Of a stretch of 64,000 bases of DNA, positions 9,001-63,500 are shown piece by piece (position 1 is the first letter of the stretch; the number at the start of each line of letters is the position of its first letter). The DNA comes from Octopus vulgaris (taxonomy: Eukaryota), in NCBI GenBank assembly GCA_951406725.2, contig OX597815.1, positions 28,024,001-28,088,000 of the forward strand. Reading direction: 5' to 3'. Position numbers: made by a program.

Positions 9001-12000
9001 GCCTTTAATGATTTCTGACATAGGCACAAAGGCTCAAATTATGAGGCTAGTAAAGTTAATTAGATTGACACCAGTATTCAAATGGCACTTATTTTGTTGA
9101 TCCACAGAAGTTTGAAAGATCAAAGTGAAAGTTCTTTGTTACATCCATTTCGTCTATCCATCTTTTCCACTCACTATTCCTGGGAGGGTCATATGGGTTG
9201 AGTCTCCAGATACTTCCTTCAGACACTTTCTATCAGAAGCAACTATCATTACACTTTCTAGTTGGATTCCCAAGCATGACCAACTGGAACAATGGATATC
9301 ATCCAACCATGTCATTCTATCCCTAGGTATCCTGCCAGTTGGCTCAGCTTGACCAATCTGTCTGGTACCTAGTCTGAACAGCTAATTATACTGAAGGATT
9401 TAGAACGAAATATCTTGCCTAGAGACACACCAAAGTATCTGCAGTAGTTGTGAGCCAATGATATCTGATTTAGTAGTTTACTGAACCATTTTGACTCCAG
9501 ATAACATTTTGTAAAAAAAAAAAAGTAAAAAAATGAAAAATAAAAATCTAATTATATCACCGTCAATTTAAATTTTAAAATTTACTTTCATAAGCATCTC
9601 TTGCAGAAAATGATAATGATTGGGGAAATTAGAACAATTGGGTGAAGTGAATTGGAACTAAATCTATGTCAAGTACAAAAGTACAAGGTTTGTTTGTAAA
9701 TTGATTGTCTGAAAAAAATATGCAGCTGAGAAAATGTCTAACTTCTTTAAGTTAAGGTTAGTGGATAGAAATTTTGTTTTTCCTCCCAGGATTCATATAT
9801 TAGAATTTGTGCTAACAGCTTTCAAGTATTATAAAACGTTGATGTTCATTTGTAAAAATATGAAACAATTCTAAGTGTTTGGCAAAGATTATAGCACAAG
9901 AACAATGTCTGCGCCTAAAAAGAAAAATGTTGAAAATAACTTGATATCAGTGATGAATTTATGGAAGATAAGGCAGGCTAGGTAAGGTTAAGAAACAAGG
10001 TTAAAAAAAAAAAAGAACAAACCAAAATAAGAATCACTGTTGGTTGCTTTAGATGTATGTAAGTTGACATGAGGTCAGAATCTGAAATGGTCTTTCAAGA
10101 AATAAATAACTTGATATATTTTTAGAGAATTATATTGTTGATTTTCGTTTGGTGCTTTATCTTTGATGTAAGCAAGTAATGTTTGAAACAATAAACTGAA
10201 GTTAAAGTGGATATAAAAGTAAAAGTACACAACATAAAGTTATCAGGTGAAAAAAAAAGAAGGAAATATTGATATAGAAATAAAAGAAACAAAACATGAA
10301 ATATCTTATGGCTTACTGAGAAGGATTTAGTTGCCAGAAAGAAGGTAATTTCCTGAAATGTAAAGAATTACTATTGTTACTTGTAGTCTATGTTGAGGAG
10401 CAGATAATGGTAAGAGAACAAGAAATAAAAATTGCACTCTTACTTGAAGCATTAAAATACATTGAATATTTGGTTCAATGCAAAAGTTTCCTAAAAAATA
10501 TCAACCCAATGGAAGATTAATAAAGTTTAAATCAATTTAATTTTAGTTCATAACCACTACTCTTATTTACTGAGATTAAAAATACTGAGCCATCACTGTA
10601 GAGCTGTTGCAGAGTTATTGTCACTGTTGTGAGAAGTTAATGTTAGAATTTCAGACATAGTAATATTCCTATTACTTCAAAACCAGTGATAAAATTATAA
10701 TAAAGTAGGAAATTAAGGAATCATTAAACTAAACATATGCCACAAGATTTAAGAAATCAATGTTTTCGTTCCTATTTTTCAAAGTAAAAATAATATAACA
10801 GCAAATAATGATAGCTCAATATTTCTAGCAAGAAATATGGTTTTGTACCATCAACAAGTTCCAGACAAACATTGAAATATTTTGCTTTGAAATTTCAACA
10901 TTAATATATATCATGTTTTCTTCAGGACACAATGTAGTTTCACAAACAGTTGGATTTAAAATATTAGTTTAATATCAACTGAGCTGTGTTCTATGTTAAA
11001 GTATTTATAAAGAAGTATTGTGATAAAGAAGTATTGTGAAATAACTAAACATAGTAAACTAGATTAGTAAACTATATACATATATTAGTATTTTTTCCTA
11101 AAAATATAAATTATACTAGAAACAGTTGCAGCTATATGAAACATGGAGACAATGTTGCAGCTTAAAGGCAGAAGCAGTACACCAATGTTTGATATCAGAT
11201 TGAAGTGTCTAAAACACCATGTCCAGAGTAGAGAAGACAAAAAGCATATTAGACAGTGCATTAGTTTTCTTATTACTCTTGAGGGGCAGGGTAACATAAA
11301 AGTATCTAACTACTGAAACATTAGCTATATCAATATATACAGTTATACACGTTGATATGTAAGCATATAAAAGTTAACAATTTTAGAAACATTCTATTAA
11401 ATTCATCTCTTTATCAACATATATTTAAACAAGTTTTACTCTTTTGTTTTTTATACATTTTAACGCATTTTATGATTTTTATGATTAAAAAATTTACAAA
11501 ATTTTAAAGACTAATGACAATTCAAAATATTATTCATTTGGAGAAATTTTCAGACATTTGTTTTTTTTAATGAGAAATCTAGATATATTAAAAATACTTT
11601 TTGTTTTACATGCTTTATCAAATTGTCAGAATAATATGAAATAAAAATAATTTTCCATACTAAATGGATCTTTTCAAATTATTTTAATTGTGGTATATAT
11701 ATATATATATATGTTATATGTTTATATATACATATATTAAGCAATATTAGGAAAAGTTTTGTGCAAAAGTTGATATCATGCTTAATAATTAATAATGGTA
11801 AAAAGAAAACAAAAAAATGATTGTGCAATGTCAGTGAATTAAGAAATTCTTAAAATAATCACATTATTTTGGCATTCAAATAACCAAAGCATTTCTTAAT
11901 GTTCATGCCTGTTGAGGCCAGAGACAGTCAATTCAAAGACAAAACATGCCTGTCTTGAACCACAGTGTTAATAAATCAGATTGATTGATGCACTGATATG

Positions 12001-60514: not shown

Positions 60515-63500
60515 TGTATGTATGTCATAGGACTTATGACATGCATGTACATGTGCATGTACAGCCGGCTATGTATGTATGTTTTAGTTGCCAATTCTGT
60601 ACAAGACATTGTAGATCTTTGGCTGGGCTAAAAAGTCACATTCGATCACAGCACCAGTAACAGTTAAGCTTCGTGCAATGGCCATACTCGATAACGAGGG
60701 GGCAGCCAACATATGTATATATGTATGTATGTATGTATGTGTGTATGTATGTATGTATGTATGTGTGTATGTATGTATGTGTGTATATGTATGTATGTGT
60801 ATGTGTGTGTGTGTGTGTGTGTATGTGTGTGTGTGTATGTATGTATGTATATGTTTGTATTTATATGTTCGCATATACACTTAATTATGGAACAACAAGA
60901 CAAATAACAGAAATGAAAATACCGAAAGCGAATAAAAAAAGTTCACCTTTAGAAAAGAAACAAAAGTACAATAAGAAATACATAATGCACAGCAGCGACA
61001 AATATCAATGGACCAGACTTTGTGACATATAAGAAATACTAAAGTCATTTACAAGTTTTACTGGCACATCTTAGAGAAAAACTGAGATTGTTCTTCAAAG
61101 ATTTATAGAACTGAATTCCTCATAATAAGTTATCTATGGATGGATAAGTTTAAAATGAAAGCAAAAAAATAGTTAAAATTTCTGTAGTTGTGTATTAGTA
61201 TTTTTATATGAATCATGAAAAAAAATGCCATAAGAAAATGAGTCCTTATCAGGAATATAAATGAGTAGAAGCCAGCTTAGGTATTCTTAAAAATCAATAT
61301 ATGTGCCAATAATCCAATAAATGAATCATACTTAAAGCAACAAATAGATAAAATAAAAGAGTTTTCCCAAATTAAAATATCCGAAGTCATTATTTTAGTT
61401 AAGAAAAGAAGCAGCTAAAGAGAAAGAAAGTAGTTGAACAGATTCTGTTAATGCTAATGAGAAGAAGATTGGTCCAACAGAGGCTGTTTTTTAACCATTA
61501 GAAGGAATGGCCAAACAGAACCTGTTGTTACCATTATATGAAATCGCTCAACACTGACTGAAGCTATCATTAGATGAAACAGCTGCACAGTGTCAGTTCT
61601 GAGCATTGGAAATGGTTCAACAGAGTCTATTGTTCCCACCAGTTGAAATGGCTGAATAGAGGCCCAAGTTATCATTCAGGAGTATAACTTTATAGAGTCT
61701 GTTGTTTACCATTAGGTAGAATGACCCAACAGAGTATGTTATTACATTTTTGAGATAGGATGACCCAAAAGAATCTGTTGTTACCATTATGTAGAATGGC
61801 CCAACAGAATCTATAATTACATTTTTGGTGGGATGGTTCAAAAGAATCTGTTGTTACCATTAGATGCAACAACCCAATGAAGACTGTTTACTATCATTAA
61901 CAAGTATGACCCAACAGAGTCTGTTGTTAGCACTAAAGGAAATAGTTTGACTGAGTTGATTGCTAACAGTGACAGATAAGATAATATTACACTCTACCTA
62001 GAACTGCGGATGCTCCTTTTCGGAATAATGCAACTGTGAGAGGGAAAAAGAAATTTGAAAACAATAATAAGTATGGTTATCTTAATCAATACTCCATAAT
62101 TGTTCAAGTCTGGGACTTCAGTTGGTTAATAGAATCAGGAAATTAAGTTATACTATATTAATAGGAAAATAAAAATATATATATATATAAAGATGAATTA
62201 ATGAAAATTTGATGGATCTATAAGATATTTAAAACACCATTTGAATAAATGAAATGTTAAAAATAAAAAAAGCATGCTGTAAGTAAAAGAATATTTTTTT
62301 TTATTATGTTATAATGGAAACAGTATGAGAAGAATCTGAGAAGAGATGAATTTGCAATGAATAGCTAGCAGCAATAAAATATGATGAAGGGTTATACATA
62401 GAAGTTTATGGTGTTTTATTGATTTGCCTGTTATTCTGGTTGTTAAATTTTATGACATAGCTAGTCAATGTCACAATGATATACACATTATGATTAATTT
62501 ACTTTGTCTTCTATAATTACTATCAAGTGAATACTGTGCTATTTATATGTATCTATATATGAATATATATGTATATAGATATTTATCTATAGGTGTGAGG
62601 GTGTGTATACACACACACACACATGCGCAGACATATATTTGTATGTTTCTAATTCTTAGTCTGAGTATCAACAATGCTCTTCTGTGATGATGGTTGGAGA
62701 TAGTCAGATGAAGTTAAAGGACTAATCATTCTGTTCTGATGGTCAAGTTAAGGGCACTGCATATGCAGAGTAGAAACTTTTGCATTGCAACTGCAGAAGA
62801 ATGATAATGGAGTAAGATGTTGTAGAGCACTCATGAGTGAAGTCTTATCTATAAAATAGATAGATTTCTTGTAGAGAAGTATGCAATCTAGAATGTGTAT
62901 ATTATTGTTTAGTTCCATGTCACCCCAATTAAGCAGACCTGTGATCAAAGACACTCAAGCCATGACCAAAGGCATGCTAGCCATGACCAATCCAACTGTT
63001 TCAAGGCATATAAGATGACATTATTGTCTTTATCTTCTGTAGGTTAGCAGGGTGTGATTTGAATGATATCTAAGTGCCATTTCAAGCATGTTGAGTGATC
63101 ACATAGAGAGCCTGTTCATTGGCTGATATGTGTGTATATGGTAAGAACCATCATTCATATATTTGAGTCACATTCCAGGGTAGTGTATATTTGTGCTTCA
63201 TATAAATTCAGCAACAGGCTAGAACTGAAATATTTTCTGTCCCTGGAGAGGAATAGCATAATTCTAAATTTTATGTTTCAGCAGTTTTGTTGACCAATGC
63301 GGTCAACATGAATGATATTATATACATATGTATATACTTATTAAGGACTGGTCATTTTTTGTTGTTGTCTAGCTCTAGGTGATCACAGACTAAAACAAAC
63401 CTATGGCCAAATATGTTCCAGTAGTAACCAGTCTATCTAAGTCTACATTATCCAACATTGCCCAATATGCTCTTCTTTTTTTTCAGGATAGAAAATGATG

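What the first reader, a model, noticed from the sequence alone, without database searches (positions are those of the whole stretch)
10317..62033. Hidden minus-strand exon chain: the hypervariable RCK1-RCK2 linker of a BK (slowpoke) channel spread over more than 50 kb
Seen: five exons absent from the ORF track (36, 6, 91, 90 and 36 nt) have canonical borders, and their phases chain exactly (1-1, 1-1, 1-2, 2-2, 2-2) into about 86 stop-free codons. Known: invertebrate Slo/SLO-1 has LA(T/L)FR(K/R) right after KKCKCKN, and this linker is the main alternatively spliced region tuning BK gating (vertebrate STREX site). Inference: four of the five exons are frame-neutral cassettes, so they could combine into a lineage-specific isoform set likely to be missed by annotation.
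Basis: partly seen in the sequence, partly recalled or inferred. Interest (0 to 1): 0.8.

Follow-up and report, generated by a model that had tools for sequence, protein, structure and literature searches.

The report
Possible hidden BK channel linker exons
Five tiny candidate exons lie on the reverse strand of this repeat-rich DNA; two look like real coding exons and one resembles the start of a BK potassium channel's flexible linker, but the gene's identity could not be confirmed here.

Summary
I located the best candidates for the other three: 6 nt at 57426..57421, 91 nt at 30043..29953 and 90 nt at 16400..16311. Lengths, phases and the 259-nt total check out, and no junction codon is a stop.

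The chaining itself carries no information. 22,001 ordered chains of these sizes and phases fit between the outer exons on the minus strand, and 15,231 fit on the plus strand.

Only E1 and E4 stand out. E1 has the best acceptor on its strand, GC 0.44 against 0.28 in the flanks, and protein-like composition. E4 has GC 0.47 against 0.28, one open frame, and composition in the top 0.5%. A pair this good occurred in 2 of 300 shuffled strands. E2 is the best of 146 six-nt candidates. E3a and E5 are not distinguishable from chance.

BK/Slo identity rests only on E1's (x)ALFRKG motif, which is known from recall. Five exon-by-exon PDB searches, Pfam, the Atlas and a paper search gave no Slo match, and the window holds no core Slo exon. 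The joined peptide was neither built nor searched.

Verdict: plausible but unproven, and ordinary in kind if true.

The parts
61998..62033 (-). E1, 36-nt candidate exon, phase 1-1, peptide (x)ALFRKGASAVL. Best supported of the five, and the only one carrying the Slo-like motif.
   Evidence: Borders read. Its acceptor score of 12.1 is the best of 3399 minus-strand AG sites. GC is 0.44 against 0.28 in the flanks. Peptide composition is in the top 3.8% of 547 chance segments. Composite score is 17.1, reached by the best candidate in 4-6% of shuffled strands. It is single-copy in the window.
57421..57426 (-). E2, 6-nt microexon candidate (my identification), phase 1-1. It has a long CU-rich tract upstream and a gtaaga donor.
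   Evidence: Best of 146 six-nt AG..GT segments, with a combined splice score of 13.4 against 4.8 for the next. Acceptor scores >=7.4 and donor scores >=6.0 occur at 0.39% and 0.28% of sites. Pairs of sites scoring 12.4-13.3 also occur at other lengths on both strands.
29953..30043 (-). E3a, 91-nt candidate exon, phase 1-2, peptide LSSVTNMPNKKDKAAASPGSQMKKISNIS. It is the only member that shifts phase, so it would have to be constitutive.
   Evidence: tttcag acceptor and gtaaga donor; one of 22 such 91-nt candidates. Only the required frame is open, and GC is 0.35 against 0.28. Composition is in the top 13.7% of 205. Rank 31 of 2351 phase 1->2 candidates. No PDB or Pfam hit.
16311..16400 (-). 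E4, 90-nt candidate exon, phase 2-2, peptide YSKILEDVEEGDDRMLAISEQPPKGSRLA. Second best supported.
   Evidence: ttacag acceptor in the top 1.85%. GC is 0.47 against 0.28, and only one frame is open. Composition is in the top 0.5% of 214. Composite score is 14.9, above every plus-strand candidate outside the SINE-like copies. The E1+E4 pair was matched in 2 of 300 shuffled strands. No PDB, Pfam or Atlas match.
10317..10352 (-). E5, 36-nt candidate exon, phase 2-2, peptide KLPSFWQLNPS. Weakest member.
   Evidence: Borders read. Acceptor is in the top 6.6% and donor in the top 9.2%; GC is 0.36 against 0.28. Composition is at the 47th percentile of 547 chance segments. Rank 30 of 628. No PDB hit.

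Best explanation
The window is mostly intron. It is AT-rich DNA full of microsatellites and decayed retroelements, belonging to a large invertebrate gene transcribed from the minus strand, and it holds at least two real small coding exons, E1 and E4.

E1 is most likely the first exon of the disordered RCK1-RCK2 linker of a Slo/BK channel alpha subunit. E2 (6 nt), E3a (91 nt) and E5 (36 nt) are candidates of falling credibility.

If the reading holds, the mechanism is the known one for this linker. Small exons whose lengths are multiples of 3 are included or skipped without breaking the frame. This changes the length, charge and kinase sites of an unstructured tether beside the gating ring, and so shifts calcium/voltage gating and its regulation, as STREX does in vertebrates.

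Shown: the borders, phases and relative exon-likeness. Inferred: that the exons are spliced at all, that they belong to one transcript, that the gene is Slo, and that any of them is alternative.
For: E1 has the best acceptor of 3399 on its strand, a GC step of 0.44 against 0.28 and protein-like composition. E4 has a GC step of 0.47 against 0.28, a single open frame and composition in the top 0.5%.

Together they outscore every plus-strand candidate outside the SINE-like copies. They were matched in 2 of 300 shuffled strands.

The motif A[TL]FR[KR] occurs once in the window, at E1. It occurred in 18% of 400 shuffled windows, followed by G in 0.25%, and directly behind AG|TT in 0.5%.

E2 is the outlier among 146 six-nt candidates. 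The exons are single-copy in the window.

Literature passages read: STREX lies at site C2 in the unstructured RCK1-RCK2 linker and changes regulation by PKA, PKC and palmitoylation. Drosophila Slo isoform J has a disordered RCK1-RCK2 linker spanning residues 631-777. Slo-1 is alternatively spliced at several sites in nematodes, arthropods and vertebrates.

From recall only: the fly protein matches E1 at 8 of 12 positions directly after its conserved cysteine-lysine motif.
Against: No tool result ties any exon to Slo. Five PDB searches gave no Slo hit. E3a and E4 matched no Pfam family. The Atlas gave nothing for E4, and 0 papers hold the motif strings.

If the organism is a mollusc, a near-identical E1 in the Aplysia Slo1 construct should have been reported, and it was not.

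No core Slo exon lies in the 64 kb.

E1 (out-phase 1) and E4 (in-phase 2) cannot be joined directly. They need a phase 1->2 adaptor, and the best candidate, E3a, is unremarkable.

The motif was chosen after seeing the sequence, so the shuffle frequencies flatter it. The splice scoring uses consensus frequencies recalled from other animals, not trained on this organism. Shuffles destroy natural low-complexity structure.
Confidence: 0.45

Rival explanations
1. Chance assembly. None of the five is spliced. The chain was picked from the thousands of AG..GT open segments that AT-rich non-coding DNA offers, and the E1 motif is a coincidence.
For: 22,001 equivalent chains exist on the minus strand and 15,231 on the plus strand. 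There are 22, 34, 72, 79 and 146 candidates per length class. Splice-score pairs as good as E2 or E1 occur on the plus strand, at 13.3 and 12.6. E5 and E3a are indistinguishable from chance. No homology was found anywhere.
Against: The E1+E4 pair was reached in only 2 of 300 shuffled strands and exceeds the real plus-strand control. GC rises sharply at E1 and E4. The motif sits exactly at an acceptor in 0.5% of shuffles.
Confidence: 0.25
2. Real exons of another gene. E1 and E4 (and perhaps others) are genuine small exons of a minus-strand gene that is not Slo.
For: Exon-likeness does not depend on gene identity. Nothing links E4, E3a or E5 to Slo. The Slo motif is short and known only from recall.
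Against: The motif with its trailing G and its exact placement at a phase-1 acceptor is rare by chance. By recall it extends to 8 of 12 matches with fly Slo.
Confidence: 0.15
3. All five are exons of one Slo transcript family, with E1, E2, E4 and E5 as independent cassettes and E3a constitutive.
For: All borders are canonical and no phase-compatible junction makes a stop. E2 is the outlier of its length class. Cassette exons in this linker are known in other phyla.
Against: E5 and E3a do not stand out. E1 carries the conserved-looking start of the linker, which makes it an odd candidate for a skippable cassette. There is no transcript evidence.
Confidence: 0.12

Closest known systems
Vertebrate KCNMA1 splice site C2 (STREX and neighbouring small inserts) in the RCK1-RCK2 linker
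   Same: Both have optional exons that keep the reading frame, lying in the unstructured linker between the two RCK domains. They carry kinase and lipidation sites that retune gating (passages read). E3a contains a K-K-x-S string of the PKA type, seen in the peptide. That the string is a PKA consensus is established knowledge and was not tested here.
   Different: STREX is one cysteine-rich exon of 58-59 residues with experimental proof. Here there are up to five much smaller pieces with no sequence similarity to it and no transcript evidence.
Drosophila slowpoke long-linker isoforms (isoform J, disordered linker residues 631-777)
   Same: It is an invertebrate Slo whose linker grows by optional exons to about 147 residues.
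   Different: No search here aligned any window exon to the fly construct. The fly gene is compact, whereas this chain would span 51.7 kb.
C. elegans and parasitic-nematode slo-1 alternative splice regions
   Same: These have several 'present or not' exons, some at positions shared with arthropods and vertebrates.
   Different: The passages read do not place those sites in relation to E1-E5. The figure that would show it (S2 Fig) is a supplement and was closed.
Neuronal microexons (3-27 nt) in animal genes
   Same: E2 is 6 nt, has strong sites on both sides and a long CU-rich tract upstream. This matches the usual description of microexons, which is recalled and not drawn from a paper read here.
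   Different: There is no expression or conservation evidence. A single TGCATG lies 190 nt downstream, and 27 occur on the strand overall, so it is not informative.

Membership tests
Slo/BK (slowpoke, KCNMA1) channel gene | Core exons of the channel (pore, RCK1, RCK2 start, calcium bowl) at the locus on the same strand | tested here: inconclusive
   Six-frame motif scans found none on the minus strand of the 64 kb, and none in the 2 kb upstream of E1. The reading itself places them outside the window, which cannot be read.
Slo/BK (slowpoke, KCNMA1) channel gene | Significant sequence similarity of the exon peptides to known Slo proteins | tested here: not met
   phmmer of E3a, E4, the E1 frame and the E5 frame, plus an hmmsearch profile of E1, against all PDB chain sequences gave 0 Slo hits at E<=10. 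The only hit was an arginine repressor at E 1.4. The power for 11-29 residues of a variable linker is low.
   E1 starts (x)TT-ALFRKG, so the second half of the motif is present and sits exactly at the acceptor. The preceding exon is not in the window. That the motif marks Slo is recalled, and 0 papers hold the strings.
Slo/BK (slowpoke, KCNMA1) channel gene | Pfam domains of the BK alpha subunit | tested here: inconclusive
   E3a and E4 match no Pfam family at E<=1. The linker is not covered by a domain model as far as I recall, so a blank is expected.
Alternatively spliced cassette exon / microexon | Canonical AG...GT borders and a length that keeps the frame | tested here: met
   All five have AG/GT borders. 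Four of the five lengths are multiples of 3, and no junction codon is a stop.
Alternatively spliced cassette exon / microexon | Transcripts with and without the exon | not testable with these tools
   No read, transcript or eukaryotic genome collection was available.
Alternatively spliced cassette exon / microexon | Conservation of the exon and its flanks in related species | not testable with these tools
   The only genome collection open holds bacteria and archaea, and I did not scan it.

The most novel reading that the evidence does not exclude
A mollusc-type BK channel gene spreads its RCK1-RCK2 linker over more than 50 kb. The linker is built from a lineage-specific set of four frame-neutral cassettes, including a 6-nt microexon, an acidic 30-residue insert, and a basic insert with a PKA-type K-K-x-S site. 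These would combine into up to 16 isoforms that annotation pipelines miss.
Probability: 0.12. Interest if true: 0.45.

Novelty: new member of a known kind. Interest (0 to 1): 0.25.

Why it matters
If real, these exons would correct the gene model of a BK channel in an animal with very long introns. They would also give a concrete list of linker isoforms to test for effects on gating and kinase regulation. Splicing of this linker is already well documented from nematodes to mammals, so this would add a case, not a new principle. The practical lesson is that phase-consistent chains of tiny exons can always be found in such DNA and prove nothing by themselves.

Tried and rejected
1. An alternative 91-nt candidate at 53703..53613 has a poor acceptor (top 82%). 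It lies inside one copy of a ~320-bp interspersed repeat at 53376-53691. Rejected.

2. PDB sequence searches, exon by exon, found no Slo hit. A sharper profile of E1 (A1) also found nothing.

3. The ESM Atlas search with E4 plus its two read-through codons gave no usable hit.

4. Pfam on eight of the window's long ORFs (104-147 aa) plus E3a and E4 gave only sub-threshold PHD, zf-RVT and similar matches.

5. A paper search for the motif strings found 0 papers. Papers on Aplysia and Drosophila Slo gave no linker sequence in the text held.

6. Rfam and tRNA scans found nothing.

7. A tblastn search for duplicated (mutually exclusive) exon copies within the window found none better than E about 1.

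8. A look for RBFOX-type TGCATG near the exons found one 190 nt downstream of E2 and one about 40 nt upstream of E4, against 27 on the strand. This is uninformative.

9. An alternative E1 donor 7 nt downstream would make E1 43 nt and fit E4 directly. It scores -3.4 (top 38% of GT sites), so it is kept only as an idea.

10. Splice-site score alone does not discriminate, because the plus strand gives equal scores.

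Full report
**What the window is.** The window is 64,000 bases with no N and about 32% GC. The long open frames are nearly all microsatellite artefacts or decayed mobile elements. Eight of the long ORFs (104-147 aa) were put to Pfam. The search gave only sub-threshold PHD and zf-RVT matches. A GC-rich interspersed repeat of about 320 bp occurs four times. Rfam and tRNA scans are empty. Nothing suggests a human origin. The window therefore looks like intron or intergenic DNA of an AT-rich invertebrate genome. 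I did not try to name the organism.

**Checking the observation.**
  - On the minus strand, a long pyrimidine tract ending in cag precedes 36 nt at 62033..61998, and gtagag follows.
  - tttcag precedes 36 nt at 10352..10317, and gtaagc follows.
I enumerated every AG..GT segment of the stated length with the required frame open.
  - This gave 22 segments of 91 nt and 34 of 90 nt, and 146 of 6 nt, of which 138 are stop-free.
  - The ones with convincing borders are 30043..29953 (tttcag / gtaaga), 16400..16311 (ttacag / gtaatt) and 57426..57421 (ctttttacag / gtaaga).
- With these, the phases run 1-1, 1-1, 1-2, 2-2, 2-2 and the total is 259 nt.
- None of the six phase-compatible junction codons is a stop, and the introns are 4571, 27377, 13552 and 5958 nt.
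Every search was done exon by exon.

**Is it more than chance?**
- The chaining is not. Between E1 and E5 there are 22,001 ordered 6-91-90 chains with the same phases on the minus strand, and 15,231 on the plus strand of the same interval.
- Splice-site strength alone is not discriminating either.
  - I scored it with consensus frequencies that I recalled from other animals, so it is heuristic.
  - E2 (13.4) and E1 (12.4) are among the best minus-strand pairs, but the plus strand offers 13.3 and 12.6.
- Adding two independent features separates the five.
  - E1 has the best acceptor of 3399 on its strand, GC 0.44 against 0.28 in the flanks, and peptide composition in the top 3.8% of 547 chance segments.
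  - E4 has an acceptor in the top 1.85%, GC 0.47 against 0.28, only one open frame, and composition in the top 0.5% of 214.
  - E3a has GC 0.35 and composition in the top 13.7% of 205.
  - E5 has GC 0.36 and composition at the 47th percentile of 547.
- In a composite ranking, E1 (17.1) and E4 (14.9) are beaten only by open frames inside the interspersed repeat and a retroelement remnant at 58.1-58.3 kb (16.3), and they exceed every plus-strand candidate outside the repeat copies, the best of which scores 12.5.
- Among 300 block-shuffled strands, 2 had a pair this good. The best single candidate reached 17.1 in 4-6% of them.
- E3a ranks 31 of 2351 phase 1->2 candidates, and E5 ranks 30 of 628 phase 2->2 candidates.
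- In the rows of the self-comparison that were shown, the E1, E3a and E5 regions matched nothing under the exons. All E4-region matches shown fell in the flanking microsatellite. No diverged second copy of any exon exists in the window.

**Is it Slo?**
  - The motif A[TL]FR[KR] occurs once in the six-frame translation, at E1.
  - It appeared in 18% of 400 block-shuffled windows, followed by G in 0.25%, and directly behind AG|TT in 0.5%.
  - These figures flatter the match because the motif was written after seeing the sequence.
- That the motif marks invertebrate Slo is recalled knowledge. My own recollection of the fly protein agrees and extends the match to 8 of 12 residues, but no call confirms it, and the strings occur in 0 papers of the library.
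- PDB sequence searches of E3a, E4, the E1 frame, the E5 frame and an E1 profile gave no Slo hit.
  - The papers read say Drosophila and Aplysia Slo structures have been solved. For the Drosophila one, the expressed construct includes the linker, which stayed disordered.
  - So a near-identical E1 would probably have been seen, while an 8-of-12 match would not.
  - This is mild evidence against a close mollusc match and is otherwise uninformative.
- Pfam and the Atlas gave nothing.
- No core Slo motif lies on the minus strand anywhere in the window, including the 2 kb upstream of E1. One five-residue core motif turned up on the plus strand at 14129-14143. Its context is not Slo-like and I take it for chance. 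The reading itself expects the core exons to lie outside the window.

**A structural caveat.** E1 leaves in phase 1 and E4 enters in phase 2, so a phase 1->2 adaptor is needed. E3a fills that role but does not stand out. An alternative E1 donor 7 nt downstream would fit E4 directly, but it scores poorly.

**Comparison with what is known.**
- Optional exons in the RCK1-RCK2 linker are textbook for this channel.
  - STREX at site C2 lies in the unstructured linker and switches regulation by PKA, PKC and palmitoylation (passages).
  - Fly isoform J has a disordered linker spanning residues 631-777 (passage).
  - Slo-1 is spliced at several regions in nematodes, one of them shared with arthropods and vertebrates (passages).
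- Even the full reading would therefore be a new member of a known kind.
- Supplementary alignments in the papers might show the linker sequences, but supplements were closed.

**What stayed unchecked.** I could not check similarity to any mollusc Slo sequence, the flanking genome, transcripts, or cross-species conservation.

**Verdict.** There are probably real small exons on the minus strand (E1 and E4), a striking but unproven microexon (E2), and two members that chance explains as well (E3a and E5). The BK-linker identity is plausible at roughly even odds, and nothing available here could test it.

Noticed in passing
window 51888-52204, 53376-53691 (inverted), 1478-1805 (inverted), 33114-33299: A GC-rich interspersed repeat of about 320 bp has four copies at 80-90% identity. 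Its open frames top every exon-likeness ranking, so it would mislead a gene finder.
   Followed up: partly
window 59552-59112 (-), 56018-55707 (-), 28103-28426 (+), 47286-47636 (+): These look like decayed retroelement fragments. Pfam gave weak, sub-threshold PHD (E 0.0035) and zf-RVT (E 0.012) matches. The two LINE-tail-like ORFs had no Pfam match, and that label comes from their appearance only.
   Followed up: partly
window 61694-61863: A 75-nt tandem repeat of 2.3 copies at 84% match lies 135 nt downstream of E1 in the intron.
   Followed up: no
window 24000-44000: The plus strand is purine-rich (GC skew up to +0.18, AT skew up to +0.11), so the minus strand is pyrimidine-rich over 20 kb. 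This might reflect transcription of the minus strand but was not tested.
   Followed up: no
window 42000-43100: A large compound microsatellite block produces fake ORFs of 200-280 residues on both strands. Similar blocks lie at 27.4-27.7, 44.6-44.8, 47.7-47.9 and 60.4-60.9 kb.
   Followed up: no
window 61987-62076 (-): Reading through E1's donor gives three more codons (G-R-V) before a stop. A donor 7 nt downstream would make a 43-nt exon ending in phase 2, which fits E4 directly. That donor scores poorly (-3.4).
   Followed up: partly
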